IMG/VR virus record: IMGVR_UViG_3300009605_004544
Coordinates: 32,001-96,000 of that record
Length of the DNA: 64,000 nt
Strand: one strand, 5' to 3'
Origin: a virus
The stretch's first letter is position 1. Each line of letters starts with the position of its first letter. The translations under genes and the position numbers were made by a program. Below, in pieces: positions 18,332-50,100 of this stretch. A model generated the notes under the pieces. The model worked only from the letters and a program-made list of their open reading frames with translations, made no database searches and had not been told where the DNA came from.

Positions 18332-18340
18332 GAGGCTTCC

Positions 18341-18751
18341 ATGCCGCAACCAGATTCGTCCAACACATTAATTGTAGATTGTGATGGTGTAATTGCAGAC
18401 AAAAATAATGGAGGAGACTATGCTAAAGCCGGGCCGCTTCAGCACGGCATCGATCAAGTTAACAGGCTCTACGATATGGGCTACACAATTGTTCTATACA
18501 CTGCCAGATATGGAGACCGGGAAAAGGGCAATATTCACTTGCAGTACGGGAGGGGCTATAAGGAGTGGACAGAATGGCTTGAGGAACATGGTGTAAAATA
18601 TCATCATGCGTATATGGGGAAGCCTGCGGGAGTTATCTATATAGACGATAAGGCCGCTCGGGTAAGAGGAGACAGCGAGGAGGGGTGGTCACAAGTGTGG
18701 GAAGAGGTAGACAACTTAAAGGGAAAAGACCGATATGGTAATCTCATATGA
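18341..18751 (+). CDS. HAD-superfamily phosphatase (capsule-biosynthesis phosphatase-like)
   Basis: VDCDGVI, YTAR, MGKP, YIDDKA. Confidence 0.82.
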   Translation: MPQPDSSNTLIVDCDGVIADKNNGGDYAKAGPLQHGIDQVNRLYDMGYTIVLYTARYGDREKGNIHLQYGRGYKEWTEWLEEHGVKYHHAYMGKPAGVIYIDDKAARVRGDSEEGWSQVWEEVDNLKGKDRYGNLI

Positions 18752-35083: not shown

Positions 35084-35269
35084 ATGCCTACGAGTAATGA
35101 TGAAGCTAAAAGGATTTGCGACATTATTAACGACTTCTTAAGCGACGAAGAAGCCGTCGCTATAACTCGAAGACTAGATGAAGAAGTGGGGGTGCATACC
35201 GACAATGACTCCTTAAAGGTAAGTCTTAGAATGCTCAGGAATCTATACGAGCGAGGAGAGAGCGAATGA
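35084..35269 (+). CDS. Small helical protein, paralogue of the N-terminus of 19829..20395
   Basis: AGGAGG RBS; 17/50 gapless identities with the 19829 gene. Confidence 0.7.
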   Translation: MPTSNDEAKRICDIINDFLSDEEAVAITRRLDEEVGVHTDNDSLKVSLRMLRNLYERGESE

Positions 35270-35820
35270 GGCTGGACCACATAGCTTACCGAGTAGGCAA
35301 TCGGCATAAGACCGCAAAACTTTTTAAGCGAATGTTTGGCTATGAAATTGGAATCGAATTTTGTATCGATTTTGATGATGGCTCCAAAGCCGAATGTATC
35401 GCAATGACTCCTATCGAAAAAGATAATCCCATATCAAAATTCATTGGCATCCCTTGGGTGACCAAATCGTATGGAATATCGAAGCCCGTAGAACATCACC
35501 TTGCTCCCGAAATTTTTATTAGTGATGGCGCACCCGGATCTATTGTAGGAGATTGGGTGAAATTACATAACGGAGGAGGCATTCATCATATGGCATATAT
35601 GACGAGCCATATACACGACGAGGTCTCAAAATGGAAGAAGCTGGGGATAGAGTTTTTATCAAACGACATAATTGACTGCCCGGAAGATGACCTGCGACAA
35701 ATTTTCACTAAGCCACTACCTGAATTGGGCGGTATTATTGTCGAACTAATCGAAAGAGGGGATAAGGGGTTTTGTCAAAACTCAGTTAAGCACTTAATGA
35801 ACAGCACCAAGGGGTTGTAA
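35266..35820 (+). CDS. VOC-superfamily metalloenzyme (HPPD C-domain/HglS-like)
   Basis: LDHIAYR (His), GGIHHMAY (His), QIFTKP..VELIERG..GF (Glu): 2-His-1-Glu triad. Confidence 0.75.
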   Translation: MRLDHIAYRVGNRHKTAKLFKRMFGYEIGIEFCIDFDDGSKAECIAMTPIEKDNPISKFIGIPWVTKSYGISKPVEHHLAPEIFISDGAPGSIVGDWVKLHNGGGIHHMAYMTSHIHDEVSKWKKLGIEFLSNDIIDCPEDDLRQIFTKPLPELGGIIVELIERGDKGFCQNSVKHLMNSTKGL

Positions 35821-35822
35821 AA

Positions 35823-37322
35823 ATGTGGAAAGCTCAAAACTATATCAATGGTAATTTTGTAAGTAGCGGGTCAGACTCATTCTTTGATAATGTAGATCCT
35901 TGCACGGGAGCTTCTCTCGGCCAGTTTTTCAATTCAAGAGTAGAGGAAGTTGAAGAAGCTTATACCGCTGCCAGAAATGCATTCTCTGAATGGCGAGCTA
36001 CAAGCCGCGTTCAACGCGCCGAATATTTATACAAGGTCGCCAAGCTTATAGAAGAAAGGCGGGAAGAATTAGCATACGTAATATCTGTAGAAACAGGTAA
36101 GAACTACAATGAGTCCATTGCTGAAGTAAACGAGGCCTTACATATGGCTCAGTATGCTTTTGGCTCTGGAAGAACCCCACAAGGAGAAGCCGTTGCGTCC
36201 GAAATTTCTGAAAAAGACGCCTATGTTCTACGAAAGCCCAAGGGTGTTGTTGCCGTCGTTAGCCCTTGGAATTTTCCTCTTGCCATTGGTGCTTTTTGGT
36301 GCGTTGCTCCTGCAATCGTGGAAGGCAATACGGTCATTCTAAAACCAAGTGAGGACGCCCCTTATACCTCCCAAATGGCAATGGAACTGTATCATGAGGC
36401 TGGCATTCCCCCCGGAGTGATTAACCTTGTACACGGAGATGGGCTTATAGGAGACTGCTTAGTTAGAAAAGATGTCGACCACATTTGCTTTACTGGCAGC
36501 GCAGAGGTTGGGCAGCACATTCGAAAAATATGTGCAGATAGCTGGCATAAAACGTGCTCCTGTGAACTTGGAAGCAAGTCTGCTGTCGTAGTTTTTGAGG
36601 ACGCTAATTTTGATCTAGCTGTATACTCCTCAGTAGCTAGCGCATTCAAGCTTTCTGGGCAAAGATGCGTGTCCTCTGGTAGAATAATCGTACAGCGAAC
36701 AATCTACGATAAGTTCTGCGAGGCTTTCGTAGAAAGGGCCTCCACTGTCAAAGCAGGCGCGCCTTTCGTGGACAACGGGTACGTGGTTGGTGGAAAGGTC
36801 AAGCCAAGTTCCGCATACATGGGGCCTTTGATCAATGCTCAGCAACTAGAAACCGTTACAAGATTTAATGATATGGTGGCTGATGATCAAGATGCCGAGG
36901 TGCTACTTGAGCCTTCATATCAATCTCCCGGCTACTACGTCAGCCCCCTTGTATATAAAACCGAGTGGAGAAATGTCCCGTACTTAAAGAGCGAGGTGTT
37001 TGGACCCCATGTTGCACTCATACCCTTTGACACAATTGATGATGCTGTTAGGATCTATAATGATACTGACTATGGCTTGGCTGTTGGCGTGGTTACTGAA
37101 GATTTCAAAAAAGCTAGAATTTGTCGTGATAGGTGTGATTATGGGATGTGCTATTGGAATGGTGGCTCTATCGCTGCTGAGTCTCATGTACCCTTCGGAG
37201 GAGTTAAGAAGTCAGGAAACGGATATCCATCAGCATCCCGAACCTTCCGTGCCGTTACTCACGAAGTAACATGGACAATTAATCATGACGACAATCTAGC
37301 CTTTCCACAAGGAATGGAATAA
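35823..37322 (+). CDS. NAD-dependent aldehyde dehydrogenase
   Basis: SPWNFP, LKPSE, FTGS, ELGSK (Glu), GQRC (Cys), EVFGP, PFGGVKKSG. Confidence 0.95.
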   Translation: MWKAQNYINGNFVSSGSDSFFDNVDPCTGASLGQFFNSRVEEVEEAYTAARNAFSEWRATSRVQRAEYLYKVAKLIEERREELAYVISVETGKNYNESIAEVNEALHMAQYAFGSGRTPQGEAVASEISEKDAYVLRKPKGVVAVVSPWNFPLAIGAFWCVAPAIVEGNTVILKPSEDAPYTSQMAMELYHEAGIPPGVINLVHGDGLIGDCLVRKDVDHICFTGSAEVGQHIRKICADSWHKTCSCELGSKSAVVVFEDANFDLAVYSSVASAFKLSGQRCVSSGRIIVQRTIYDKFCEAFVERASTVKAGAPFVDNGYVVGGKVKPSSAYMGPLINAQQLETVTRFNDMVADDQDAEVLLEPSYQSPGYYVSPLVYKTEWRNVPYLKSEVFGPHVALIPFDTIDDAVRIYNDTDYGLAVGVVTEDFKKARICRDRCDYGMCYWNGGSIAAESHVPFGGVKKSGNGYPSASRTFRAVTHEVTWTINHDDNLAFPQGME

Positions 37323-37588
37323 TGTTCTCAAACGCGTTCGAGATTTTTCTAAACATGCTGGCCTATTCGTTTTGGCCCTTTGCATTTTCCTTGATAGCGA
37401 TCTACGTCTTCAATACGTACCTCAACGACTCTTATAAGAGAAAAGTTAAAAAGGAAAAGAGGGTACGCTCTACGGACCCGGAAGTTCACGATCTGGCAGA
37501 AAAGGCGCTGAACTTCAAGGCTCCCAAGATAGAGACCTCTTTTGGGGATGAGAGAATAGGTGAAGTCCATGCGAGTGAAAAGGATTAG
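37322..37588 (+). CDS. Small single-pass membrane protein
   Basis: Hydrophobic N-terminal ~33 aa followed by basic KRKVKKEKR. Confidence 0.6.
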   Translation: MFSNAFEIFLNMLAYSFWPFAFSLIAIYVFNTYLNDSYKRKVKKEKRVRSTDPEVHDLAEKALNFKAPKIETSFGDERIGEVHASEKD

Positions 37589-37632
37589 AGAGTTAACAGG
37601 ACTCCAACTAGAATAACAAGAGGTAATTGAAA

Positions 37633-38682
37633 ATGACAGATGCTGCCCCCCTTCCTTCAGTCAATGCTCGCGCTATAGGTGTGGACATTGGAACCGGATT
37701 TATATCTTGTGCAGAAAAAGAAGCAGGAGACGTAAAGTTCCGAAAGATTAGAGACGCTTTTTTCAAACTCAACCCCTCCAAGTTCCTTGAGGGTTCAGCG
37801 AGTCAGTTCGGTGAAAGTATGCTAAAAAATTCTGGTGCTCATTATGTTAAGGTTGATGGCATCCTACATGTTCTAGGTGACGACGCCTTCAAGTTCGCAA
37901 ATCTATTCCATCAAGAATGCCTTAGACCTATGTCAAAGGGTGTTCTGAACCCCAAGCAGCCGGTCTCAAATCTCATGGTGGGAGAGCTTGTCAAGGCTAT
38001 AGCTGGAAAGCCTACGGCAGATAGCGACGTTCTATACTACTGCGTTCCCGCTGAGCCAATTGATGCGGACTTTGACGTGGAGTACCATAAACAGATATTA
38101 GGGGGCGTTTTTGACGATCTAGGCTATAAAAATGTTAACGTAATGACGGAGGGGCTGGCTGTCGTATACTCAGAGTTAGCTGACACGCAGTACAGCGGCA
38201 TTGGAATGAGCTTCGGAGCCGGTATGTGCAACATTGTCTACTCCTTTATGGGTATTCCTGTCTTTGCCTTCAGCTTGAGCCGGGGTGGAGACTGGATCGA
38301 CAGTCATGCGGCTCAGCACACGGACGAGACCCATAACGTGGTGACTGCTGTCAAAGAAAAGGCCGACTTTAGCCTTTACGATTCTACAAATGGGATTCAA
38401 CGGGCAGTTTCTATCTACTATGAATCTTTACTAAATTATGTTGTTGAACAATTCAAGGAATTGTATGAAAGAACCCCTAAGAAGAAATTGCCAAATGTTA
38501 CTGCGGAAATGCCGATTGTAGTAGCGGGAGGGACTTCTCTAGTTGCAGGATTCGTGGAAAGACTTAAGGAGTTAATAGTAGACGATTTCCCAGTCCCTAT
38601 CTCTGAAGTAAGGCACGCAGAGCAACCTCTTTTCGCTGTTTCCAATGGCCTTTATCGGGCAGCCAAGCTCTCCCTCTCTTGA
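37633..38682 (+). CDS. Actin-like ATPase, volactin-like family
   Basis: Phosphate-1 GVDIGT, connect-1 EGLAV, phosphate-2 variant GMSFGAG, GGDWID, adenosine VAGGTS; family strings GDDAFKFANLF, RPMSKGVL, PAEPID..YH; GAGG RBS before ATG 37633. Confidence 0.85.
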   Translation: MTDAAPLPSVNARAIGVDIGTGFISCAEKEAGDVKFRKIRDAFFKLNPSKFLEGSASQFGESMLKNSGAHYVKVDGILHVLGDDAFKFANLFHQECLRPMSKGVLNPKQPVSNLMVGELVKAIAGKPTADSDVLYYCVPAEPIDADFDVEYHKQILGGVFDDLGYKNVNVMTEGLAVVYSELADTQYSGIGMSFGAGMCNIVYSFMGIPVFAFSLSRGGDWIDSHAAQHTDETHNVVTAVKEKADFSLYDSTNGIQRAVSIYYESLLNYVVEQFKELYERTPKKKLPNVTAEMPIVVAGGTSLVAGFVERLKELIVDDFPVPISEVRHAEQPLFAVSNGLYRAAKLSLS

Positions 38683-38693
38683 AGGATATTAAT

Positions 38694-39662
38694 ATGGAAA
38701 TGACAGAAACTATTAACCGTATATTTGATAAGCGCAAAGGTCTCTTAGCTGCTGACGAGAGCACCCCCACCATACAAAAAAGATTTGACTCTGTGGGAAT
38801 GTCTTCTACGCCAGAAACGAGACATGACTATCGACACAATCTTTTTTCCACAGAGGGGCTGGAACGCTATATCGGGGGCGTCATCTTATATGATGAAACG
38901 ATCAGGAACAAAGAGACCATAGCGCCATTGCTGGACAAGGGAATTACTTTAGGTATCAAGGTAGACGGGGGAGCCAAGCCCTACAATAAAACAGGGGGCA
39001 AGCTAACGGAGGGACTTGATGGACTTACAGAAAGGCTTCGAGAATATAAAGACTTGGGGGCCGAATTCGCTAAGTGGCGTGCCGTTATTGACGTTAATGA
39101 TGCCGATACTTGCTTACTGGCTAATGCTTGGACTCTGGCTAGATATGCTAGAAAGTGTCAAGAAGAAAAGATAGTCCCTATAGTGGAGCCAGAAGTATTG
39201 ATGGATGGAGTACAAACAATCTGGAAGTCTTTTGATGTAACGGAAAAGATACTCCACATTCTATTTGACGCCCTATATTGGGAAAGAGTTGATTTGGAAC
39301 AGATCATTCTCAAGCCCAATATGATCGTCTCTGGATACAAGAGCACCATTCGGGAGAGATCAGAAGGTGTGAGCGCCGCCACTTTAAATTGCTTTCAAAG
39401 AACCGTGCCCTCTGCGGTTCCAGCAATTGCTTTCTTAAGTGGTGGGCAAAAGGATGAAGAAGCAATTAATAATCTAGCCGAAATGAACAAGCAGTCCTAT
39501 TTGCCTTGGGTGGCCTCATTTTCCTTTGGTCGAACAATGCAGAGCGGTGCTTTAGAATTGTGGGCAGCTAATAAAAAGTCAGATGCTAGACATTGGACAT
39601 TTGAAAGGGCTAAGGATTGTTCTCAAGCAGTGTCTGGGAAATCAGTGAGTTGGGAGAAATGA
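38694..39662 (+). CDS. fba: Fructose-bisphosphate aldolase class I
   Basis: GLLAADES, GIKVD, FAKWR, PIVEPEV, LKPNM (Schiff-base Lys), FLSGGQ, SFSFGR. Confidence 0.95.
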   Translation: MEMTETINRIFDKRKGLLAADESTPTIQKRFDSVGMSSTPETRHDYRHNLFSTEGLERYIGGVILYDETIRNKETIAPLLDKGITLGIKVDGGAKPYNKTGGKLTEGLDGLTERLREYKDLGAEFAKWRAVIDVNDADTCLLANAWTLARYARKCQEEKIVPIVEPEVLMDGVQTIWKSFDVTEKILHILFDALYWERVDLEQIILKPNMIVSGYKSTIRERSEGVSAATLNCFQRTVPSAVPAIAFLSGGQKDEEAINNLAEMNKQSYLPWVASFSFGRTMQSGALELWAANKKSDARHWTFERAKDCSQAVSGKSVSWEK

Positions 39663-39826
39663 GAATGGGTCTTTGGGCACTACTGATGTCGAGCGTTCTT
39701 TATGCTGTTGTATCTGTCGATCTAGCTATTAAAAATAAGTACGCCCTATCTATTATTTTTTTGTGCTATACCATAGCAAACTTAGGGTACGTCTGGCTAG
39801 CTTATTACGATAAGGAGGGGTCATGA
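39659..39826 (+). CDS. Small two-TM membrane protein
   Basis: 55 aa, hydrophobic; ATGA overlaps on both sides. Confidence 0.6.
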   Translation: MRMGLWALLMSSVLYAVVSVDLAIKNKYALSIIFLCYTIANLGYVWLAYYDKEGS

Positions 39827-40872
39827 TAAATAATCGAACTGCTATTGTTGGCGCAGGGAATATGGGGAAAGCGATAGCTTGGGCCATGGAAAGCTTGGAT
39901 CATGATGTTGTGGTGCTAGATCAAGATGAAAAGGCAATATTTGATTGTCAAAAAATATTAAAACCTTCTCGACATAAGTTCATTCGAGGCACATCGTATC
40001 AGATGTTAAAAGAGTGCTCGATGGTAATCTCGTCACTACCCTACCATCAGAACCTGAAATTAGCAACTTTCTGCATTGACAATGGAATAAAATATCTTGA
40101 CCTAGGTGGCTGCGTTAAAGTCAGCGAAAAAATTAACGAATACGCCAATCACAAAGCAGAGTGCCCTGTAATGACAGATCTGGGCCTTGCACCGGGCTGG
40201 GTTAATATCGTGGCTGAAAATCTGTACCGAGAATACGTAGAAAGCAAGGGTGAAATTCCCAACTCAATCACGATGATGGCAGGAGGACTTCCTCAGAGAC
40301 CTACTAATACTTTAAAATATGGCTGCACATGGTCATATGCTGGCTTAATAAACGAATACAGAGATAATTGTATCGTTTTGATAAACGGCCTTCAAGACGT
40401 GCAAAGAGGGATGGGCGGATTTGAAGAACCTGTACAAACCGAAATCGGTGAGTTAGAAGCGTTCTATACTAGCGGGGGAGCAGCCCATACAATTGCCACG
40501 ATGCAAAGACGAAAAGTTCCCAATTGCTGCTATAAAACATTAAGATATCCGGGCCATCATAGAATTGTTAACTTTCTAATCCACGAATCTGGGTTGGACG
40601 ACGAAGCTCTGACGAAAGTCTTTCAAAGAACGTGCCCTCCTCGGGACGACTTAGTAATTATGCGTGTCGCAGTAGACGATCTATTGTTTGAAAGGGTCAT
40701 CAGGTCTGACCAAAAATTCTCTGCCATGCAAAAGGCTACGGCGTTTCCTATTGCCGCAGCGGCCCATACGGCAGCCTCTTATGACTTCTCGCAGCCTGTT
40801 TTAAAATATGACGACCTTGGAGTCACACCATTTAATACATGGCTAGATGTTCTGTTCTTACATACGTATTAG
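39823..40872 (+). CDS. Saccharopine dehydrogenase family / lysine 6-dehydrogenase-like
   Basis: GAGNMG Rossmann, YLDLGG, DLGLAPG, GGLPQRP, WS..GLINEY, LEAFYTSGG, YKTLRYPGH. Confidence 0.88.
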   Translation: MINNRTAIVGAGNMGKAIAWAMESLDHDVVVLDQDEKAIFDCQKILKPSRHKFIRGTSYQMLKECSMVISSLPYHQNLKLATFCIDNGIKYLDLGGCVKVSEKINEYANHKAECPVMTDLGLAPGWVNIVAENLYREYVESKGEIPNSITMMAGGLPQRPTNTLKYGCTWSYAGLINEYRDNCIVLINGLQDVQRGMGGFEEPVQTEIGELEAFYTSGGAAHTIATMQRRKVPNCCYKTLRYPGHHRIVNFLIHESGLDDEALTKVFQRTCPPRDDLVIMRVAVDDLLFERVIRSDQKFSAMQKATAFPIAAAAHTAASYDFSQPVLKYDDLGVTPFNTWLDVLFLHTY

Positions 40873-41096
40873 ACGGGCCATTTGGGGTCGTTTGGAGAGC
40901 ACCTGCCGGTCAAATTAAGCAAAAACTTTTTAAGCTCTATAATTTGCGCCGCCCTCTTTAGGATATGCCTCCTTTTCATCTCGTCCCCTCCCATCGCTGT
41001 ACACTCATGATCCTTTCTTTTAATTACTTCAATAGCATGTTGATGTTTTCGAATCAAATATTCGGCTTTCTTGTCTTCTCTAATTGGGCCATTCAT
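40869..41096 (-). CDS. Hypothetical protein
   Basis: 75 aa; overlaps upstream stop (ATGA) and converges on the + strand gene with a 4-nt overlap. Confidence 0.5.
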   Translation of the reverse strand: MNGPIREDKKAEYLIRKHQHAIEVIKRKDHECTAMGGDEMKRRHILKRAAQIIELKKFLLNLTGRCSPNDPKWPV

Positions 41097-42013
41097 GTCG
41101 TCCTCTCATAAACGTATCTGGCTGTAGCTATATCTTCAATTGCTAATCCGGTAGCGTCAAACAGCGTGCCCATGGTGCGATCAATATTATTGTACTCTAA
41201 AGGTCCACTGACTATTTCCCCCAAAGAAAATAAAGCTGGCCTGCGAATACACTCTGATAAGTATTGAATTTCTCCTGAATGAGAGCATTGCTCCCACTCG
41301 TCATAAACGATGAGTCCCATATGGTTAATTACAGAAGCATCTAGCTCTCTTTTCCCCTTGGCGTCTGCGCCAACGGCATTGATAAGAACTGATTCTTTTA
41401 ACCACTCCTGCTTAATAAAGCCCTTCCGAGAAGGGGTAAGGGTGGTTACGATATCGGCATCCCTTAAGCATTCTGCTAGGCTGTCGAAGACTCTTGCGTT
41501 GTCAAACTCTTCGGCCATCCTGTGCGCTCGGTCTGAATCTAAGTCATATAAAAATATCTCATGTATATCTCTAACGGCGGTAACGGCCTCGATTTGTCTT
41601 TTTGTTTGATTCCCGCACCCAATAAAAGCCGCTGTTTGCGAATCAAGTCTAGACAAGTATTTGGTGGCGACTCCCGTTACAGCCGCTGTTCTAATGGCAG
41701 TTAACGTTTCTCCATCCATGATGCATAAAAGCTTGCCCGTCTTAATGTCGTTAATTAAAACTTTGGCAAAAATATTGACTTTTCGCTTCGTGCCTGTATC
41801 ATCGAGATGGACACCGCACCATTTTATTCCCGCCGTATCGTATGCTATAGCGGGCATCGCTCGAAAGTCTCCGTTAGGAATGTTTAGATAAGTTTTTGGA
41901 GGCATCTGAGTATGGTCTAGGTTTTTGAACAGCCTTTCTATAATATTAATACATTCAGGGACAGTAATTAACTTTCCAACTTCGTCATTACTCAAAATAG
42001 GAACATTTTGCAT
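41093..42013 (-). CDS. Ornithine cyclodeaminase/mu-crystallin family (archaeal-type alanine dehydrogenase-like)
   Basis: MPPKTYL..GDFRAMP..AGIKW, TAIRTAA, IGCGNQ, AVGAD..GKREL, FDATGLAIED; GAGGTG RBS before ATG 42013. Confidence 0.9.
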   Translation of the reverse strand: MQNVPILSNDEVGKLITVPECINIIERLFKNLDHTQMPPKTYLNIPNGDFRAMPAIAYDTAGIKWCGVHLDDTGTKRKVNIFAKVLINDIKTGKLLCIMDGETLTAIRTAAVTGVATKYLSRLDSQTAAFIGCGNQTKRQIEAVTAVRDIHEIFLYDLDSDRAHRMAEEFDNARVFDSLAECLRDADIVTTLTPSRKGFIKQEWLKESVLINAVGADAKGKRELDASVINHMGLIVYDEWEQCSHSGEIQYLSECIRRPALFSLGEIVSGPLEYNNIDRTMGTLFDATGLAIEDIATARYVYERTT

Positions 42014-42024
42014 TTGACAGCACC

Positions 42025-42714
42025 TCAACCTAATCTGTCTAGAATTTTAGCAATAATATCATTCCTAATAATATCTCGTCCTTCTAATTTACAGATAGAT
42101 ATGCCCTCTATCTCTCCTAACTTTTCCATGCAGGTTTCGAGTCCTCCTTTCATGTAGTCATTAAGGTCTGTTTGATCAGGGTCTCCATTTAATACCGCTT
42201 TAGAGTTTTTCCCAATCCTCGTAACAAACATTTTTATTTGTTCAAGCGTGGCATTTTGGGCTTCGTCTAAAATCATAAACGTGTTGTGGAAATTCCTTCC
42301 ACGCATATATTCCAGCGGACACAGTTCTATTATGTTGTTAAAACGAAGGCTATCTAGCATGTCTCGTGAGATATATTTACCCATTTCTTCCAACACAGGA
42401 ACAAGATAGGGTTGAATCTTATCTGTGTAAGTTCCCGGTAAATGTCCAAGTCCTCCCCCCGTTTCTACTGTAGGGCGAGCTATGACGATCTTGCCCACCG
42501 TGTTTTCCTGAAGAAGCTGGCATCCAAGGCCAACCGCAACAGCAGTTTTACCAGAACCGGCAGGGCCAGTGCAGAATACGACATCGGATTTTATCATGGC
42601 CTTAAGATAATTCGATTGATTTTCAGTTTTCGGGATTACTTTTCTTTGTGGATACCCTCCGTCAGAATGAGTTTTCGGGAGGTCACTGTTATTTTTCTTT
42701 TTCTTTCTGGGCAA
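42025..42714 (-). CDS. phoH: PhoH-family ATPase
   Basis: GPAGSGKT, ARP, LGHLPG, YMRGRNF, ILDEAQN, GDPDQTD. Confidence 0.95.
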   Translation of the reverse strand: MPRKKKKNNSDLPKTHSDGGYPQRKVIPKTENQSNYLKAMIKSDVVFCTGPAGSGKTAVAVGLGCQLLQENTVGKIVIARPTVETGGGLGHLPGTYTDKIQPYLVPVLEEMGKYISRDMLDSLRFNNIIELCPLEYMRGRNFHNTFMILDEAQNATLEQIKMFVTRIGKNSKAVLNGDPDQTDLNDYMKGGLETCMEKLGEIEGISICKLEGRDIIRNDIIAKILDRLG

Positions 42715-43199: not shown

Positions 43200-44114
43200 C
43201 TAGGGAGAACAGGCACCTTCTGTAATCAGGCCAGACCACTGCATCACTACTGGGTGAATGGGGGGTGTCATCGAAGGATCAGGGTCGAGCATTCCTGTCT
43301 GACAGTCACAGTTGATAAGGAACTCCCCCTCCACCAAGAGCATAAACTTTTGTCCTTCGGTGCCCTTGCATTGGCCGCTTACCAGATCAGCACAGTTGTT
43401 GATACTTAATGTGCCTTCCGTGGTCTGCGGCCACTCTTCGGTGCCAGTGTAATAAGCACAAGGAGAGCAGGGAACCGAGCAGGGTTCTATTTCAAACCAG
43501 AAGCAGTGTGAGGAGCATGGAAGAGGTCCAGCCCCCGTTACAATGCCGTCTCCCTCTGTGGCGCATGGGCCGTTCGGGTGGAGTTGCGGGCATGGATGAT
43601 CGAAGCCGAGAGGAAGACCAGTAACTTGAATTCCCGTCTTGCAACAACATAGGCTGGCGGTAATGCACATGCCATCACAGTCAGACCCTGACATAGGAGG
43701 TGAGCTAGTAGTGCAGTCGCCACAGACAGTCCCTGAGAAACCCCACGCTTCTATATAAGCTCCCGTTGGCTGGTCTTGGTATTCGGCAAGGCACACGGTG
43801 CAGAGCGCCCCGCCGGGATTCAAGTCGCCGTCACTGTGGTAGTAACACATGGATGGCGATTTGGCGAACGTAAATGAGAAGTCGTCGCACATGCATGGCG
43901 ATCCACCGCCGCCACCGCCGCCACCACCTTGGATGCGACAATTAATCATCTCAAAGCAAAGAGGTCCAGTTGGAACGCAAGCGCAGCAATTACAATAACA
44001 CGAGTCAATATTGGCCCCGATGGGAACCCCCGGAGTTCCTGCGGGCGGTGCTGTGCAACATGAACAGCAAGTGTTTCCGTATCTTGGCCCTATGCCTATA
44101 TGCGTAACGCTCAT
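43200..44114 (-). CDS. Cysteine-rich virion-associated protein (putative tail tip/fibre partner)
   Basis: About 35 Cys in 304 aa, poly-Gly linker; TAATG-coupled to the upstream 2433-aa gene. Confidence 0.65.
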   Translation of the reverse strand: MSVTHIGIGPRYGNTCCSCCTAPPAGTPGVPIGANIDSCYCNCCACVPTGPLCFEMINCRIQGGGGGGGGGSPCMCDDFSFTFAKSPSMCYYHSDGDLNPGGALCTVCLAEYQDQPTGAYIEAWGFSGTVCGDCTTSSPPMSGSDCDGMCITASLCCCKTGIQVTGLPLGFDHPCPQLHPNGPCATEGDGIVTGAGPLPCSSHCFWFEIEPCSVPCSPCAYYTGTEEWPQTTEGTLSINNCADLVSGQCKGTEGQKFMLLVEGEFLINCDCQTGMLDPDPSMTPPIHPVVMQWSGLITEGACSP

Positions 44115-47100
44115 TAACTTACCCCTTGTAATAGTCCATTACAAAAAGTGAGAGTTGCGGCGAATACAGCCATAGAGTCTCCGCTACAAGCAATACCTGT
44201 AATTACCGGCAAATCCCCCTTGTACCCGATTGTGCCCATCTTCATTTTTGTATACTTGCCATCGTCACATGACTCTTGAAATGTTCCTTGAAGAGTTGTG
44301 CAGCCACCAATCGCGTCGAATGTAATCTCTTTAATATAGTCCCCTATGCCCCCGACTGTCAAATTCTTGGCTATGAGGGTCTTACATTCGCTAGCTGTTG
44401 AGTAAGAAGCAATTTTTTCCAAGCCCACACCAAGCTCAAGCATTTGGGTGTGCAAAGCACCCCCATTCGCCCCGTCAGGTATTTTGCAATTATCTGAATC
44501 TTCCGTAAATTGATGCACGTTAGGAGCAAGGAAAATAGTAGAAACATTGTCACCTTCCGCAACCCTAACATCAAGACCTTTATAACCCGACACTTCACAC
44601 GCGACTTGATGATCCGCTTGAGCATAATCGGCGCATAGATAAGCATCATGATCAGTCCACTGCGGTCCTGCTGTTAGAGCAAAGTCCAATCGATCTGCCG
44701 CTGGCGTATGTGACTGACCCATATAGCCGAAGCCTGTGCCAAACACTACGCTACGGGCGCGGGAAACAATTGAGGCAGTTACTGCGTCTACGCATCCCGT
44801 TACTCTGTAGTCAAAACCGTTCCAAGAGATGAGTGCTTCACAGTCGCCTTCATCTTCCATTGTAAGGCCCGTTCCGATACCGATGCATTCGAAAGGCCCG
44901 TCATGGCACACATCGTTCCTGATCCCCTGACTAGGAGAAGCTACACTACCGCTTCTTGTTCTAAACTTTTGAACCAGATTAACTGTAGCTGCGCATTGAC
45001 CTTCTGTTCCGGGGGCGTCTAACTCTACCTGAAGACCGCTTCCAAATATCAAAGTCTGGAATGGCGTAGAAGGCATTCCGTCTCTGTCACATACAGACAT
45101 TCCACTAACATCCGGCCCTGTAATTTCAAAAGCACAGGGGAAGTCTGGAACTACTTTTGCATTCAGTCCTGTAGAGATAATTATATTGCGGAAGAAAGTT
45201 TCGTTGAATTTTGTGGTTGGCTTGTTCTCGCAACCCTTATTAGAAATATATTGAACAGCATGCAGAATCGGAGCACACTCAGGGCCAGCTTTCTCGATAC
45301 CGCTCCCGAACACAAGAGTGTCGAATGGAGTTGGCCCGTAGTCTCTGGCTCTATTTGCCTCTTCATCTGCCTCGCAGGTTCCAAGGCCAGAATATCTTGG
45401 GCCGGTAATCTTAAATGCACAGCCCGATTGACTCACAAACAGCCCAGTAGACATATCAAGAGTATTAAAGAACCTATGTTCGTCATCCGAAAGAGGGGAA
45501 AACCCTGCCGCATCGGAGGCTGGGGTTCCACAAGGGGTTGTTCTAATCCACTGTGGTGCATCGACTTGGAAATCACATGTGCTGAAATTGAACACGCCAG
45601 TGAGGCCGCTGCCAAAAGTAATCTGGTCTGGTACGACCGGTCCAAAATCATTTCCGCTACAGGGGGCAACCAATTTAACGCTGGGGCCAGACACGGTGTT
45701 TGTTATAGGATCGACCGTCAGGCCGCTTCCAAATACCAGACAGTCTACTGGCTTACATTCGAATTCAGACTTGCACCCCGTCGCTCCTATTTTAATTCCG
45801 CTTGAGTGAAGCGTATATGCGCCGCAGTTATGCCCTGAAATCCCTTCTTCTACGTAGAAGCCGCTTCCAAACTTCAAGCACTCAAATAAGCCGCCTATCT
45901 CCTGACCCCCAGCGGTGGTCCCCGTGACACAATGGGTTGTATTAAGCCATACAGAACATCCCCCTGTGGGGAATCCGTTGGGGTCTGGTGGTTGCTCCAC
46001 AGGGCTTATATCTCTGTTGAGAGTAAGCCCGGTGCCCACAAGTAACGTGCCGAAAGGCTGATTGAGCCACTCGTCGTCAACATATGAGTTGTCACAAAGA
46101 ATGTCGCTGATCAGCGGTCCAGCAACTACGTTCGTGCCAGTATCCCATGTCAATCCGGTCCCAATAATCAGGCAACTGGTACTAGCGCAGGGCAACCACC
46201 CGGTGCCACAACCAGTAGTCCCGACTTTCATCGTTCCTTCTACTGATATTGCAACACCCGACCAGCCATCCTCCTGTACTCCCGAAACGGCAATACCGTC
46301 TCCGAATTCTATAAATTCTACGCCATACTTTGTCATCTCGTCGGGGAGTTCCGGATCACAACCTTTTTTAAGCTCGCGATCACTACAACCAATTGCTATC
46401 TTGCTGGAAACTAAAACACCTGTTTTGTCTTGTGTATTAACTCCAGAAACAATAAGGTTTCTTCCAAACTCAATGAATTCCGCGCGGTCTTTAGTAAAAT
46501 CGAGGTCAGCGACTTCAGGAAATATGTCACAGCAGTACGTCGGAGCATCATACAGCGAATCGCACGCCGTCCTCTGACTGCAAGCTACGGCTACTCCCCC
46601 ACTGTTGCCGCTAGTGTTAACGGAAATTAAAAGACCTGACCCTCCTTCACCTGCAAGGCCCTTGACGTTAAGTCCCTTCCCAAAATTAAGATACTTCGCT
46701 TTTGGAATCGAAAAATCAGGCGTATCGTTAAATTGGCCACATCCGGTAGCCTCCCTCTCGCTACAGGCTACGGCTATGCCTTGGCCGCTCTGCGACCCCA
46801 CGGAAACTAAAACGCCTGACTTTTTACCATGCTCAATCCCAGAAACATCTATGCCATTCCCAAATTCAAGAAATTCCCAAGCAGGATCAAACTTGGGTGA
46901 TTGGCTAAACTGGTCACATCCGCTAGCCTCCCTCTCACTACAGGCAATTCCAATGCCGGGACTGCCACTATCCATTGAAATTAACAGCCCGGAACTCCCC
47001 CCCCTCCCCCCTGTGAAATCTTGAATGCCAGAAATTTGCAGACCTTTCCCGAATTCAAAAAATTCAATGACAGGATCCCACGTCGGCTTCTCTTCCCATT

Positions 47101-50100
47101 TTTTACCACCCTCAACTTCATCCGACCCACAGCCACTAGCTTCCCTGTTGCTACAGGCAATACCAAAACCGGGAATCACGCTAACACCAATACCAGACTC
47201 CCTCCCCGTCTCTCCCGAAAACGGGCCGCCGTCGCACATTGAATCAAGCCCCGTTACAGCAAATCCCTTGCCAAAGTCAATAAAGTACGCCGGGAAGAAA
47301 GGCACGACCGATGCCCCGGCTGCCCCCGCGCCCTCGTCGAGAGCGGGGTCGCATCCAGTTCCGTAGTCAACGCCGTGACACGATATTGGGATGATGTCAC
47401 GCTGCTCCACCGAAACCAATAATCCTTTACGGCCCTTGCCGGATTCCTCTGGAGTGCCTGCAAGGCATGTTGGAGCGAGCGGGTCGTTTTCCCAGACACC
47501 AGATACCTGAACGCCCCTACCCCACTCGATAAATTCCCAATCGTTTAAGTCGGGACAGTCGCTTTCTCCAGATTTACCAACATAACCCCCGTACTCTATC
47601 GCGTCACGGATGCAATCGTGCTGCTCGCCAACGTTGCTAATGGATTCGCATGCACACCAGTCAATACTACCACACGGATCGTGAATCGCCGTTCCCGGCA
47701 CGCCAGTTGATGTGTACTGTCGCGGCACGGCCCTATCACTGCAAGCCGCTGAGAGACCACCCCCTTCTCCACCACCAAGCAACCAATACTCACAAGCTGC
47801 TGTGTCATAATAGGCAACGCCCTTAACGATGCTCTTATCTGTAGGATTGAAAACTTGAATTGTAGGTGACGAAATAACGTTGCCTTCTTTATCATATATA
47901 TCCTCGGCGCCCTTAAGAACATTGGCCGTTCCGTATCCCCCCGCACCAATGCCAGTAGCGGATTCTACCTGATACATCCTAAACGCCGGGGGAATAGTCC
48001 AAACCCCTCTGGCCCTGTCAAATCTTAAGTCTACGGGAGCGGCGGGCCAGTCACGAGCGTCTGACAACCAGTCCTCTTTGAATTTATCAGTTAAATTCTC
48101 GTAGTTATCTTGCCAAGTTCCTGCGCTATCCCCTACAGAGTTAGGAACTGGCTTGCCATAGATATCGTATCCCCATCCATGTATAACTAGCGGCCCTCTA
48201 AGGGCAAAATGACGATAGTCCGCTGCGTAGTTTGCATTTCCTGAAATATGAATAAGTAGAGAGTCAGTTCCACCGATCTGATTATCCAACAGCCAAGACA
48301 TTGATTCTCTAGCGACCGCTTCAACATCATGGCCGCTGGTGCTCTCATTCCCCCGGAAACCGTCAAGGAGAGTAGTGTTGGAAACCGGGTCTGCCAGATA
48401 GTCTAAATATTTTTGAACGACAGGCAATCCAGTGTACCCATCCACGGGAGGGGGAGGCGCAGATGTCTGAAAAGTAGGGCAGTTTCCGCTATTTGATGCA
48501 ATCTTAGGGAGGCCCGCATCTCCGTAATTAGATACTGGTCTAATAATGGCATCCATACTTACATAGGATGTGCTGTCATACTCTGAATAGTATGGCATCG
48601 TATGCTTGTCTGGAATTATGACAATTTTTCTTTTAGGATCAGAGGTAAGCTTGCCTGCAAACCATATGCCGGGGCTTCTAGGGGCTAGTGCCCCCTTACC
48701 TATGTCATCAGTAGCAATACGAGAAAGTTTTGTATCTCCCCCTCTTGATTCCGCTACTTTTAACAGCTTGCTGAGTGCTGAACTTGCACGAAGGTCTCGC
48801 TCACCTTTAAGCTTATTTAAACCGATCTGCTTGACACGTTCCGCATTTCCCTTAGAGAATCTGCCAAAAACAGGAGTAAAAGTGCTAATGGTATAGGAGG
48901 TTGTCACCCCTCCGGGGCCTACCGTGACGTTGATACTTGACACGCTTGCACCACCAGTCTGCTGCCCAACAGACCATGACACAAAGTTATACATGGCTGG
49001 ACCGTTAGGATAAGAGTGTGAGCCAACCCCAAGAGATCTGCCATCATATCTAGTATTAGGTGAATTAGCCAATAGTGCAGATCCCAATGACAGCGTGGGA
49101 TAGCCCGGTATGGTAACTTCTCCCCTCTCACCAAATTGCATAGCCGTGATCGCATTAGCGACCTTGGCAGTCCCTGCGGCATTCATAAACTCGCTGCCAC
49201 CATATTCCCAAGGAGCTAAGCCGTCGTCTACTTCACAGTGCACAGAGCCGGGATTTGCTCCTACAGCATACCATGGACCATAAGTTCTAGTATTACTTTT
49301 GACAGGCACTCCCGCTTGGTATGGATAGGCAACGGCAGCCCCAACGGCCCCCACCGTTTCACCCTGAGCACCAAGTTTATTTTTAGTAACTACTGGCGTA
49401 ACTCCAGCAGCGCCCTGTGGCTTAGCATCCATTAGCTTAGAGTTGGACTCTATCGCTGGAATACTCTCCCCGTCTAGCACGGGAGTTCCTATTTTTAATA
49501 GCGCCGCGAGCTTGTCATCATCGGGCACTCCTATGACCGGGGTTCCTTCAACCCATTTTTGCTCAACACTGGCTTTTACCCAAACCTCAGTACCCAGAAC
49601 AAGATAATCATCTTGATTCAGTGCTTTAAGATTTAAATCTGCTCCAGTATATTTTAGTATTGGCTGGATTTTGCCCGATTCGTCTTTAAAGAAATCTGCT
49701 GCAATACTGGGATTATCTATCCCTAAAATGTCTGTGTCATCGTTAGGTGTTGCCCACCCCCCGTCTGTCGATGGTTCGTCACTATAAACGGTCTTTTTAG
49801 TATCTGTGTCTGTGTTAGAACATACATGAGGGCACAGTACTAAAAATTGCTTACCCCAAAAGTCTTGCACATATGATTGGAACCAACTAAAAAATGTTTT
49901 CCCATCTATAACCTTTGGGTTGGTTGGGGTGCCGTCATTTCCCCCTCCCTCTCTTCCAACCAAGCCGTCTATGGCAACGCGATCATCCATAGCGCCGGGG
50001 TCTCTGTTTCTAACATCATTTAGCTTGATTTCCAGAGTATCCCTATAATATCTCTGTATAACCGTATCAACCCCTCCGACCTTCTCCATCGTTAAAATTT

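What the first reader, a model, noticed from the sequence alone, without database searches (positions are those of the whole stretch)
35266..42013. Candidate four-enzyme phage lysine catabolic pathway (LysDH, ALDH, OCD/AlaDH-family, VOC dioxygenase)
Seen within 6.7 kb: a lysine-6-/saccharopine-dehydrogenase-family enzyme (39823), an intact ALDH (35823), an OCD/mu-crystallin enzyme of the archaeal AlaDH type (41093) and a VOC protein with a His/His/Glu triad. The VOC's ends (DHIAYR...ELIER..GF..S...MNST) resemble HPPD and HglS/DUF1338. Established: Lys -> aminoadipate semialdehyde/P6C (LysDH) -> 2-aminoadipate (ALDH) -> 2-oxoadipate -> D-2-hydroxyglutarate (HglS, VOC fold). Inference: the four genes could form this route, with the AlaDH-type enzyme doing the oxidative deamination or pipecolate/ketimine chemistry, yielding NAD(P)H, ammonia and TCA carbon during infection. 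I know of no described phage with this whole set. Caveats: the OCD gene is on the opposite strand, and the VOC protein (184 aa) is shorter than HglS.
Basis: partly seen in the sequence, partly recalled or inferred. Interest (0 to 1): 0.75.

Follow-up and report, generated by a model that had tools for sequence, protein, structure and literature searches.

The report
Phage lysine-breakdown gene trio
This large uncultured marine phage carries three enzyme genes, kept together in many ocean viruses, that most likely break down lysine using a half-size version of a known oxygenase; the fourth proposed gene is not part of the set.

Summary
Only three form a unit.

**The conserved trio**
- A relative of the lysine-6-dehydrogenase-type gene was found in 185 viral contigs; the best 80 were studied.
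- The aldehyde dehydrogenase (ALDH) lies upstream on the same strand in 65 of 80. The 184-aa VOC protein sits directly before the ALDH in 45.
- In one phage lineage the cassette is present or absent as a block, while the OCD gene stays in both.

**Support for lysine as substrate**
- The dehydrogenase model fits P. horikoshii L-lysine dehydrogenase best (Z 38).
- Bacterial homologues lie in operons with P6C dehydrogenase (Pcd), HglS and a D-2-hydroxyglutarate-dehydrogenase-like gene.
- Seven of the 80 loci carry a lysine ε-aminotransferase-like gene inside the cassette.
- The ALDH keeps the equivalents of ALDH7A1 Glu121 and Arg301.
- The VOC protein is a single-domain copy of the HPPD/HMS catalytic domain. 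It carries the HglS-type His-x3-Arg motif.

**What does not fit**
- The OCD/AlaDH-type gene, the class I aldolase and the actin gene occur independently of the trio.
- The ALDH fails the curated Pcd/ALDH7 model, and the VOC protein is not a Pfam HGLS member.
- No gene for converting 2-aminoadipate to 2-oxoadipate is assigned.

Earlier notes of this scan report the same module on other DNA. I found no paper describing it. All functions are inferred.

The parts
35266..35820 (+). Single-domain VOC metalloenzyme (184 aa) of HPPD/HMS/HglS type. Proposed 2-oxoadipate dioxygenase/decarboxylase ('mini-HglS').
   Evidence: AF2 model pLDDT 88. VIA-align: HMS 3zgj Z 19.1, HPPD C-terminal domain 1cjx Z 17.6, MCE Z 14.4, rice HglS 6w1k Z 13.0. 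Invariant H5, R9, H107/H108 and E160. The DHIAYR motif matches DH[GI]A[LF]R of operon-linked bacterial HglS. It lies directly upstream of the ALDH in 45 of 80 viral loci.
35823..37322 (+). NAD(P)-dependent aldehyde dehydrogenase (499 aa). Proposed 2-aminoadipate-6-semialdehyde dehydrogenase, not of the ALDH7/Pcd family.
   Evidence: Pfam Aldedh E 8e-131. Every NCBIfam equivalog is below its cut-off; P6C dehydrogenase scores 257 against 730. Asn150, Glu248 and Cys282 are present. Glu104 and Arg281 align with the positions I assign to ALDH7A1 Glu121 and Arg301, and are invariant in 63 phage ALDHs (residue roles from PMC11362210). 60-78% identical across 65 of 80 loci.
39823..40872 (+). Compact saccharopine-dehydrogenase-family enzyme (349 aa) of the L-lysine 6-dehydrogenase type. 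Proposed first step, lysine to aminoadipate semialdehyde/P6C plus NH4+.
   Evidence: Pfam PF03435 plus PF16653. PDB sequence search: 3abi (PH1688 LysDH) E 3e-18, next the AASS SDH domain at 1e-5. AF2 model pLDDT 93. VIA-align: 3abi Z 38.2, 326 residues aligned, against CASDH 33, saccharopine reductase 32 and HSS 26. 52 of 80 phage-conserved positions are identical in the Pcd-linked bacterial clade. The phage clade is monophyletic.
41093..42013 (-). OCD/mu-crystallin-family enzyme nearest to archaeal alanine dehydrogenase. An independent auxiliary gene, not a demonstrated part of the module. The longest ORF starts at TTG 42028; the ATG at 42013 is the likelier start.
   Evidence: PF02423 240 bits. 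TIGR02371 scores 228, below its 409 cut-off. PDB 1omo/1vll E 1e-58. It lies on the opposite strand and ends the minus-strand unit that contains PhoH. It occurs independently of the trio.
37322..38682 (+). Insert between the ALDH and the dehydrogenase: an 88-aa ORF plus a volactin-type actin homologue. Not part of the pathway.
   Evidence: PF25216 Volactin E 5e-74. Absent from the 96%-identical relative L001, present in L003-L005 and L007.
38679..39662 (+). Class I fructose-bisphosphate aldolase. A separate auxiliary gene lying inside the cluster.
   Evidence: NF033379 scores 379 bits against a 250 cut-off. Found in only 4 of 80 dehydrogenase loci.

Best explanation
The region holds a conserved three-gene phage auxiliary module. 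Unrelated auxiliary genes (an 88-aa ORF, an actin, a class I aldolase) are inserted into it in this lineage.

Proposed mechanism; every step is inferred:
1. The 349-aa LysDH-type enzyme oxidatively deaminates the epsilon-amine of L-lysine with NAD+. This gives 2-aminoadipate-6-semialdehyde (in equilibrium with P6C), NH4+ and NADH.
2. The ALDH oxidises the semialdehyde to L-2-aminoadipate.
3. A transaminase not assigned in this window, presumably the host's, makes 2-oxoadipate.
4. The 184-aa Fe(II) VOC enzyme carries out an HPPD/HMS/HglS-type oxidative decarboxylation and hydroxylation of 2-oxoadipate. This gives 2-hydroxyglutarate and CO2.
5. Host enzymes could convert 2-hydroxyglutarate to 2-oxoglutarate.

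The net effect would be release of nitrogen, reducing power and carbon from lysine during infection. The OCD/AlaDH-type gene, the aldolase and the actin are separate auxiliary genes.

What is shown: gene identities, predicted folds, conserved residues, and the linkage of the three genes. What is inferred: substrates and products.
For: **Linkage**
- 185 viral contigs encode a relative of the dehydrogenase; the best 80 were studied.
- The ALDH is present on the same strand in 65 of 80. The VOC gene lies directly upstream of the ALDH in 45 of 80.
- Nine of the 15 loci without an ALDH are cut off upstream of the dehydrogenase.
- In one lineage the cassette VOC-ALDH-ArgDH-LAT-NDPsugarDH-SDH is present or absent as a block between the two halves of a split DnaE.

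**Lysine**
- The dehydrogenase matches LysDH 3abi best, in sequence and in structure (Z 38.2).
- Bacterial homologues (29-38% identity) are directly followed by a true P6C dehydrogenase in 37 of 80 loci (NF050084 scores 822 against 730). Twelve also have HglS (PF07063) and about 9 a FAD-linked oxidase of D-2-hydroxyglutarate dehydrogenase type.
- Seven of the 80 loci carry a class-III aminotransferase inside the cassette. Its best PDB match is M. tuberculosis lysine epsilon-aminotransferase (E 8e-103, next 7e-44), and TIGR03251 scores 465.
- The ALDH keeps the Glu121 and Arg301 equivalents.

**VOC protein**
- It has the fold of the HPPD/HMS catalytic domain, including the C-terminal helix.
- The His/His/Glu triad is invariant, and so is Arg9 at His+4. 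In HglS that arginine (Arg74) binds the distal carboxylate of 2-oxoadipate (PMC7286885).
- hhalign against operon-linked HglS aligns the His-Glu-GF half (E 8e-4).
Against: - No enzyme activity was measured.
- The ALDH fails the curated Pcd/ALDH7 model (257 against 730). It has Val where ALDH7A1 has Thr303.
- A Glu or an Arg at these two positions may also occur in other ALDH families. That is from memory and was not tested.
- The VOC protein is not a Pfam HGLS member: 0 of 36 homologues match at E <= 1. The hhalign probability is only 24%.
- The VOC protein resembles HMS/HPPD (Z 17-19) more than HglS (Z 13). It keeps HPPD-like Gln and Phe residues, so an aromatic or other 2-oxoacid substrate is not excluded.
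- The dehydrogenase differs from the bacterial clade at several conserved pocket-region positions: GG for TE at 95-96, TDL for PQC at 118-120, E132 for H, Y329 for Q.
- No 2-aminoadipate transaminase and no 2-hydroxyglutarate dehydrogenase was found in the window.
- Where a lysine aminotransferase-like gene is present, it looks redundant with a LysDH.
- Some loci place an AdoMetDC-like gene next to the dehydrogenase, which hints at amine or polyamine chemistry.
- Six loci with full flanks have the dehydrogenase without an ALDH.
Confidence: 0.55

Rival explanations
1. The reading as proposed by the first reader: a four-enzyme pathway. In it, the OCD/AlaDH-type enzyme supplies the missing step (oxidative deamination of 2-aminoadipate) or does pipecolate/ketimine chemistry.
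For: The window encodes no other candidate for converting 2-aminoadipate to 2-oxoadipate. The OCD protein is closest to an NAD-dependent amino-acid dehydrogenase (1omo, E 1e-58). The same four genes are neighbours in L001 and L007.
Against: The OCD gene is on the opposite strand, in the PhoH transcription unit. It lies within 10 kb of only 8 of 80 dehydrogenase loci. Only 9 of 29 viral OCD loci have the module nearby. Sister contigs keep the OCD gene whether or not the cassette is present. In some relatives an ArgZ-like arginine dihydrolase lies nearby, which would suit an ornithine cyclodeaminase role.
Confidence: 0.1
2. The trio is a real unit but acts on another amine and aldehyde, for example ornithine, diaminobutyrate or a polyamine-derived aminoaldehyde. 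The VOC enzyme would then oxidise a different 2-oxoacid.
For: An AdoMetDC-like gene lies next to the dehydrogenase in 13-15 loci, and an arginine dihydrolase-like gene lies in 7. The top NCBIfam hits of the ALDH are 2-oxoglutarate-semialdehyde and aminobutyraldehyde dehydrogenases, all below cut-off. The dehydrogenase has clade-specific changes in its pocket region. Phage AdoMetDC homologues are often arginine or ornithine decarboxylases (PMC9992855).
Against: The dehydrogenase has no sequence hit to CASDH or HSS at E <= 1e-3. It has no His-Glu-Glu string, which is the CASDH triad (PMC10413350). Its structural scores to these enzymes are lower (33 and 26, against 38 for LysDH). A lysine-specific aminotransferase-like gene lies in the cassette. 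The bacterial operon analogy points to lysine.
Confidence: 0.2
3. The VOC protein is not an oxygenase but a methylmalonyl-CoA-epimerase- or glyoxalase-like enzyme. It would be paired with the ALDH for aldehyde or 2-oxoaldehyde detoxification, and only loosely tied to the dehydrogenase.
For: Foldseek ranks MCE first (E 2e-9). VIA-align gives MCE Z 14.4. TIGR03081 scores 35 bits. The family falls under Pfam Glyoxalase_4. About 20 loci have the ALDH and the dehydrogenase without a VOC gene.
Against: HMS and HPPD score higher and cover all 184 residues, including the C-terminal helix, while MCE covers 1-166. The second half matches HPPD segments in the PDB sequence search, and the QIFT, ELIER and GF motifs lie in it. 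Arg9 is invariant. The VOC-ALDH adjacency almost always lies in cis with the dehydrogenase.
Confidence: 0.1
4. The genes are unrelated auxiliary genes that happen to collect in a variable region where two transcription units converge.
For: The region does hold unrelated cargo (actin, aldolase, PhoH). The actin pair is an insertion/deletion difference from the 96%-identical relative L001.
Against: The same gene order recurs in 45-65 of 80 loci in many different genomic backbones, at 40-60% protein identity. The cassette is gained or lost as a unit. A Nitrospirales chromosome carries the same three gene types side by side (L099).
Confidence: 0.05

Closest known systems
Bacterial LysDH - P6C dehydrogenase (Pcd) - HglS - D-2-hydroxyglutarate dehydrogenase operons (Roseateles/Pelomonas type, e.g. 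locus L083; Chitinophaga type with the order LysDH-HglS-Pcd)
   Same: The same three reaction types are encoded together: a compact LysDH-family dehydrogenase, an aldehyde dehydrogenase, and a His/His/Glu VOC-fold enzyme carrying the DHxAxR motif. The dehydrogenases are homologous (29-38% identity; 52 of 80 conserved positions shared).
   Different: The phage ALDH is not ALDH7/Pcd. The phage VOC protein is 184 aa and belongs to Pfam Glyoxalase_4, not to HGLS (296-404 aa in those operons). The phage gene order is VOC-ALDH-...-dehydrogenase. No D-2-hydroxyglutarate dehydrogenase was found. The phage dehydrogenases form their own clade.
HglS / DUF1338 2-oxoadipate dioxygenase-decarboxylase (P. 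putida PP_5260; rice FLO7, PDB 6w1k)
   Same: VOC fold with a His/His/Glu metal site; an Arg four residues after the first His; an E-x-I-x-R motif around the Glu; a similar C-terminal segment. VIA-align Z 13.0 over 160 residues.
   Different: No Pfam HGLS match. About half the size and without the surrounding helices. Structurally closer to HMS and HPPD.
4-hydroxyphenylpyruvate dioxygenase / hydroxymandelate synthase, C-terminal catalytic domain
   Same: Best structural match (Z 17-19, rmsd 2.4-2.7 A, 154-157 residues), covering the C-terminal helix. HPPD chains are the top PDB sequence hits.
   Different: HPPD and HMS have two VOC domains (330-400 aa); this protein is the catalytic domain alone. 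TIGR01263 scores 39 against a 277 cut-off. Arg9 fits a dicarboxylic substrate better than an aromatic one.
L-lysine 6-dehydrogenase of Pyrococcus horikoshii (PH1688, PDB 3abi)
   Same: Same length (349 aa) and same two-domain architecture. Z 38.2, 326 residues aligned. GxGxxG motif plus an Asp after the second strand.
   Different: Only 24% identity. Activity of the phage protein is untested.
Phage and virus polyamine enzymes (Li et al. 2023, PNAS, PMC9992855): AdoMetDC-derived decarboxylases, homospermidine synthase
   Same: Auxiliary amine-metabolism genes in marine phages. Homospermidine synthase belongs to the same superfamily as the dehydrogenase. AdoMetDC-like genes neighbour the module in some relatives.
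   Different: That paper does not mention saccharopine, aldehyde dehydrogenase or glyoxalase; it names lysine 6-dehydrogenase only as a relative of HSS. The phage protein is far from HSS (Z 26) and from CASDH.

Membership tests
L-lysine 6-dehydrogenase (EC 1.4.1.18, PH1688 type) | Sacchrp_dh_NADP plus Sacchrp_dh_C architecture in a compact protein of about 350-400 aa | tested here: met
   PF03435 and PF16653 both above cut-off; 349 aa
L-lysine 6-dehydrogenase (EC 1.4.1.18, PH1688 type) | Closer to solved LysDH than to CASDH, saccharopine reductase/SDH or homospermidine synthase | tested here: met
   phmmer: 3abi E 3e-18, AASS SDH 1e-5, no CASDH or HSS hit. VIA-align Z 38.2 against 33, 32 and 26
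L-lysine 6-dehydrogenase (EC 1.4.1.18, PH1688 type) | Genomic partnership with an aminoadipate-semialdehyde/P6C dehydrogenase | tested here: inconclusive
   Bacterial homologues are followed by a true Pcd in 37 of 80 loci. The phage gene is linked to an ALDH in 65 of 80 loci, but that ALDH is not Pcd
L-lysine 6-dehydrogenase (EC 1.4.1.18, PH1688 type) | NAD+-dependent oxidative deamination of the epsilon-amine of L-lysine | not testable with these tools
   Needs an enzyme assay. The structure paper (PMC2832993) is not held, so its substrate-binding residues could not be checked
Carboxy(nor)spermidine dehydrogenase | His-Glu-Glu catalytic triad (PMC10413350) | tested here: not met
   No HEE or H[DE][DE] string anywhere in the protein. 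Only 11-13% identity to CASDH structures
ALDH superfamily | Catalytic Cys, general-base Glu and oxyanion Asn in their conserved motifs | tested here: met
   N150 (NFP), E248 (ELGS), C282 (GQRC). Pfam E 8e-131
ALDH7 / Pcd (L-piperideine-6-carboxylate dehydrogenase) | Score above the curated NCBIfam NF050084 cut-off | tested here: not met
   257 bits against 730. The Roseateles Pcd scores 822
ALDH7 / Pcd (L-piperideine-6-carboxylate dehydrogenase) | Ion-pair residues for aminoadipate (ALDH7A1 Glu121, Arg301) and the H-bonding Thr303 | tested here: inconclusive
   The Glu (E104) and Arg (R281) equivalents are present and invariant in 63 phage ALDHs; Thr303 is replaced by Val (roles from PMC11362210). 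The equivalence rests on my own residue count against the Roseateles Pcd. These residues may not be unique to ALDH7
HglS / DUF1338 (Pfam PF07063) | Match to the Pfam HGLS model | tested here: not met
   0 of 36 family members match at E <= 1. hhalign against operon-linked HglS: probability 24%, E 8e-4
HglS / DUF1338 (Pfam PF07063) | His/His/Glu metal triad plus the substrate Arg four residues after the first His (His70/Arg74 in P. putida) | tested here: met
   H5, R9, H107/H108 and E160 are invariant. The motifs sit side by side with bacterial HglS. Residue roles from PMC7286885
HglS / DUF1338 (Pfam PF07063) | Fe(II)/O2-dependent conversion of 2-oxoadipate to D-2-hydroxyglutarate | not testable with these tools
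   Needs an enzyme assay
HPPD / hydroxymandelate synthase | Two tandem VOC domains and a score above the TIGR01263 cut-off | tested here: not met
   Single domain of 184 aa; 39 bits against 277. Nearly all of the 150 best family representatives are 270 aa or shorter
HPPD / hydroxymandelate synthase | Fold of the C-terminal catalytic domain, including the C-terminal helix | tested here: met
   3zgj Z 19.1, 1cjx Z 17.6, 3isq Z 17.3, covering model residues 1-184
OCD / mu-crystallin family | Pfam PF02423 above cut-off | tested here: met
   239.9 bits against 24
Archaeal alanine dehydrogenase (TIGR02371 equivalog) | Score above the curated cut-off | tested here: not met
   228 bits against 409. 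It is still the best-scoring subfamily, and 1omo/1vll are the best PDB hits

The most novel reading that the evidence does not exclude
The 184-aa VOC proteins would be a new, minimal, largely virus-borne class of 2-oxoacid dioxygenase that does the HglS reaction with half the protein. No 2-hydroxyglutarate dehydrogenase was found in the window or in the viral loci studied. So the module's purpose may be to accumulate 2-hydroxyglutarate (or 2-aminoadipate) as a metabolic effector during infection. Such an effector could interfere with 2-oxoglutarate-dependent enzymes or with nitrogen-status sensing, rather than simply feed lysine carbon into central metabolism.
Probability: 0.12. Interest if true: 0.85.

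Novelty: new variant of a known kind. Interest (0 to 1): 0.6.

Why it matters
If the assignment holds, many uncultured phages (hits include Tara ocean data) carry their own route for stripping nitrogen, reducing power and carbon from lysine. Related cassettes also carry arginine- and lysine-directed enzymes. That would add basic amino acids to the list of host resources that phages redirect.

It would also define a half-size, single-domain relative of HPPD/HMS/HglS. Such a protein would be a convenient minimal scaffold for studying, or engineering, 2-oxoacid decarboxylating hydroxylases.

The work also corrects the finding itself. The unit is a trio, with an ALDH-dehydrogenase core. It is not a four-enzyme pathway.

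Tried and rejected
Gene contexts were obtained with the search for related loci and my own ORF clustering instead.
- **No whole genome is held for this window**.
- **DNA search against cultured phages** gave only short hits: a huge uncultured phage and the P-TIM68 aldolase.
- **Protein searches against the phage collection** found the VOC protein, and weakly the dehydrogenase, only in two huge uncultured phages, LR756511 and LR756504.
- **PHROGs gave no functional names**.
- **Polyamine reading** (CASDH, CAPADH or homospermidine synthase for the dehydrogenase). I considered it because of neighbouring AdoMetDC-like genes. I rejected it as the main reading because of the sequence and structure ranking and the missing His-Glu-Glu triad.
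- **Ectoine-type and SbnB-type roles for the OCD protein** were considered. All those models score far below their cut-offs.
- **Canonical HglS membership of the VOC protein** was rejected.
- **Promoter and terminator scan** was no better than shuffled sequence.
- **The LysDH structure paper** could not be read, so its substrate-binding residues were not checked.
- **Model coordinates are not exposed**, so I could not confirm in three dimensions that Arg9 faces the metal site. I inferred it from its i+4 position on the same strand.
- **Cluster 3** (138 aa, 29 loci, between the ALDH and the dehydrogenase in relatives) looks HAD-like by its DIDET motif. It was not pursued.

Full report
**1. What is in the window**

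The 64-kb window has phage-like content and dense gene packing. It encodes ribonucleotide reductase, a DnaB helicase, a primase, a DnaE split into two genes and a PD-(D/E)XK nuclease. It also has a run of glycosyltransferases, PhoH, and two giant minus-strand ORFs of 2433 aa and at least 3659 aa. No tRNA genes were found, and no whole genome is held for it.

A long plus-strand block meets a minus-strand block at about 40870. The genes in and around the finding, in order:

| Coordinates | Strand | Gene |
|---|---|---|
| 35266-35820 | + | VOC protein, 184 aa |
| 35823-37322 | + | ALDH, 499 aa |
| 37322-37588 | + | 88-aa ORF |
| 37627-38682 | + | volactin-type actin |
| 38679-39662 | + | class I fructose-bisphosphate aldolase (NF033379, 379 bits against a 250 cut-off) |
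| 39823-40872 | + | saccharopine-dehydrogenase-family protein, 349 aa |
| 40869-41096 | - | 75-aa ORF |
| 41093-42028 | - | OCD/mu-crystallin protein, probable ATG start at 42013 |
| 42025-42714 | - | PhoH |

**2. Do the genes travel together?**

A profile of 17 homologues of the dehydrogenase (A1) matched 185 viral contigs, and the best 80 were fetched with 10-kb flanks.

- The window's ALDH has a homologue (60-78% identity) in 65 of 80 loci, on the same strand as the dehydrogenase. It lies upstream in all but L019.
- Nine of the 15 loci without an ALDH have less than 6 kb of sequence upstream of the dehydrogenase.
- The VOC protein has a homologue in 45 of 80 loci, almost always directly before the ALDH.
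- By contrast, the OCD gene is present in 8 of 80, the aldolase in 4, and the actin in 4.
- Starting instead from the OCD protein (profile A4), 29 viral contigs were found. Only 9 have the ALDH within 10 kb, and 8 also have the VOC gene and the dehydrogenase.

One lineage provides a natural experiment. Contigs L171, L172, L177, L183 and L189 have this layout: ThyX, nuclease, OCD, one ORF, DnaE N-terminal half, one ORF, then the cassette, one ORF, DnaE C-terminal half. The cassette is VOC, ALDH, an arginine-dihydrolase-like gene, a lysine-aminotransferase-like gene, an NDP-sugar-dehydrogenase-like gene and the dehydrogenase.

Contigs L165, L174, L175, L180, L181 and L182 have the same backbone, including the OCD gene, but no cassette. 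The cassette moves as a unit, and the OCD gene is not part of it.

The 96%-identical relative L001 lacks the 88-aa ORF and the actin. That pair is therefore a recent insertion or deletion inside the module.

**3. The dehydrogenase**

- Sequence search of solved structures gives P. horikoshii L-lysine dehydrogenase (3abi) at E 3e-18. The next hit is the SDH domain of human AASS, at only 1e-5. There is no CASDH or homospermidine synthase hit.
- An AlphaFold model (pLDDT 93) aligns best to 3abi: Z 38.2, rmsd 2.5 A, 326 residues. CASDH scores about 33, saccharopine reductase 32, AASS-SDH 32 and homospermidine synthase 26.
- The CASDH His-Glu-Glu triad (PMC10413350) is absent.
- In one genome per prokaryotic species, the best cellular relatives are only 29-38% identical. 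In a FastTree of 155 sequences the phage proteins form one clade (support 0.92).
- Those cellular relatives are informative. In 37 of 80 loci the gene is directly followed by a true L-piperideine-6-carboxylate dehydrogenase. In Roseateles noduli (L083) that ALDH scores 822 bits on NF050084 against a 730 cut-off, and matches solved Pcd at E 2e-200.
- In 12 of those loci an HglS gene follows or lies between. In L083 it scores 89 bits on PF07063. About 9 loci add a FAD-linked oxidase of D-2-hydroxyglutarate dehydrogenase type. Together these make up a full lysine to 2-oxoglutarate route apart from the transaminase step, so these homologues are very likely LysDH.
- Of 80 positions that are at least 90% conserved in the phage clade, 52 carry the same residue in the Pcd-linked bacterial clade. 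These include the TWS-GL-NEY, E-F-TSGG, Y-T-R-GH and A-Q-T motifs. Several positions differ between the clades.

**4. The ALDH**

The ALDH is intact (N150, E248, C282), but no curated equivalog model claims it. The best models are 2-oxoglutarate-semialdehyde, HpaE and aminobutyraldehyde dehydrogenases, all at about half their cut-offs. P6C dehydrogenase scores 257 against 730.

I aligned it with the Roseateles Pcd. All 63 phage ALDHs keep a Glu in the E-V-x-E motif and an Arg just before the catalytic Cys. By my residue count these are the equivalents of Glu121 and Arg301, which ion-pair with aminoadipate in human ALDH7A1. Thr303 is Val in the phage enzymes (residue roles quoted from PMC11362210). 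This fits a substrate that carries a carboxylate and an amine, but it does not prove one.

Two cellular loci pair this ALDH type with the dehydrogenase type: L099 (a Nitrospirales chromosome) and L134 (Binatia). L099 also has a VOC protein between them.

**5. The VOC protein**

- Thirty-six homologues share invariant His5, Arg9, His107/108, Gln145, Phe147, Glu160 and Phe169.
- The model (pLDDT 88) matches the C-terminal catalytic domains of hydroxymandelate synthase (Z 19.1) and HPPD (Z 17.3-17.6) over all 184 residues.
- Next come methylmalonyl-CoA epimerase (Z 14.4, residues 1-166 only) and rice HglS bound to 2-oxoadipate (6w1k; Z 13.0, 160 residues, 22% identity).
- HPPD, HMS and HglS are the VOC enzymes that decarboxylate and hydroxylate a 2-oxoacid. 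In HglS, Arg74, four residues after the metal ligand His70, binds the distal carboxylate of 2-oxoadipate and is essential (PMC7286885).
- The phage family has DHIAYR at this position. The operon-linked bacterial HglS proteins have DHGALR or DHIAFR. The second His, the E-[LF]-I-x-R motif and the GF...N/S...M/F..ST tail also correspond.
- Profile-profile alignment of the two families covers that half, with E 8e-4 but a probability of only 24%.
- No member of the phage family matches Pfam HGLS even at E <= 1. TIGR01263 (HPPD) scores 39 against 277.
- The family has 79 clusters at E <= 1e-30 among 1.84 billion representatives. Nearly all of the 150 listed are 270 aa or shorter, so the single-domain form is the native one.
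- My reading is that it works like HglS, HMS and HPPD but is a member of neither curated family.

**6. Other lysine evidence**

In seven of the 80 loci the cassette carries a class-III aminotransferase. Its best solved relative is M. tuberculosis L-lysine epsilon-aminotransferase (E 8e-103; the next hit, GABA aminotransferase, is at 7e-44). TIGR03251 scores 465 against a 521 cut-off.

Beside it lies an ArgZ-like arginine dihydrolase (NF052232, 255 bits against 450). These phages therefore collect enzymes that act on nitrogen-rich basic amino acids. A lysine aminotransferase and a LysDH both make the same semialdehyde, which looks redundant and is unexplained.

The window itself has no lysine aminotransferase, arginine dihydrolase, canonical HglS or 2-hydroxyglutarate dehydrogenase.

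**7. The OCD protein**

It is a clear OCD/mu-crystallin member. It is nearest to archaeal alanine dehydrogenase but falls below that equivalog's cut-off. Strand, operon position and distribution all separate it from the trio (section 2). Its role in the proposed pathway remains possible only as a guess.

**8. Literature and earlier notes**

Full-text searches found no paper describing a phage LysDH/ALDH/VOC module. The survey of virus polyamine enzymes does not contain the words saccharopine, aldehyde dehydrogenase or glyoxalase.

Earlier notes of this scan describe the same module on other genomes. One pointed to the bacterial LysDH-Pcd-HglS operons, and I re-derived that independently.

**9. 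Verdict**

- The four-enzyme pathway is reduced to a conserved trio with an ALDH-dehydrogenase core.
- Lysine catabolism ending in a mini-HglS step is the best-supported mechanism, at about 0.55.
- The main rival, a different amine substrate, stands at about 0.2.
- Nothing has been shown biochemically.

Noticed in passing
window 37322-38682: The 88-aa ORF and the volactin-type actin (PF25216, E 5e-74) are absent from the 96%-identical relative L001. They are present in L003-L005 and L007 (actin 84-91% identical). The pair is a mobile insert that interrupts the metabolic module.
   Followed up: partly
window 38679-39662: A phage-encoded class I fructose-bisphosphate aldolase passes the NCBIfam equivalog cut-off (379 against 250). 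An 86-bp stretch is 77% identical at DNA level to the aldolase of Prochlorococcus phage P-TIM68. Only 4 of 80 related loci have it.
   Followed up: partly
L171, L172, L177, L183, L189 versus L165, L174, L175, L180-L182: In a related lineage the whole amino-acid cassette (VOC, ALDH, arginine-dihydrolase-like, lysine-aminotransferase-like, NDP-sugar-dehydrogenase-like, dehydrogenase) is inserted between the two halves of a split DnaE polymerase. Sister contigs have the same split DnaE without the cassette.
   Followed up: partly
L047:7178-7978 and L009:5332-6540 (and 5 further loci): An ArgZ-like arginine dihydrolase (255 bits on NF052232, cut-off 450) and a lysine epsilon-aminotransferase-like gene are encoded side by side in phage cassettes. 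This suggests viral release of nitrogen from arginine as well as from lysine.
   Followed up: partly
L099:5855-9071 (Nitrospirales chromosome OZ244884): A cellular genome carries the phage-type trio in the order ALDH, VOC (222 aa), dehydrogenase. It could be the cellular source of the phage module, or a transfer from phage.
   Followed up: no
window 40869-41096 (-): A 75-aa ORF with a weak zinc-ribbon-like hit (L37ae, E 0.007) lies tail to tail with the dehydrogenase. It is conserved in that position in 5 related loci (L001, L003-L005, L007) and lies elsewhere in L006.
   Followed up: no
window 44114-51415 (-) and 52966-63999 (-): Two giant ORFs on the minus strand, of 2433 aa and at least 3659 aa (the second runs off the window). 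They were not analysed.
   Followed up: no
ESM Atlas hit, not in the window: A cluster of short (226 aa) proteins of giant viruses (Nucleocytoviricota) that carry the HGLS domain ranks among the feature-space neighbours of the phage VOC protein (score 0.92). Short HglS-like enzymes may exist in other virus groups. This is a lead only.
   Followed up: no
13-15 of loci L001-L080, e.g. L019:9624-10004: An AdoMetDC-like gene (PF02675) often lies directly upstream of the dehydrogenase. A HAD-like 138-aa gene lies between the ALDH and the dehydrogenase in 29 loci. The window has a homologue of the HAD-like gene elsewhere, at about 18332-18664.
   Followed up: partly
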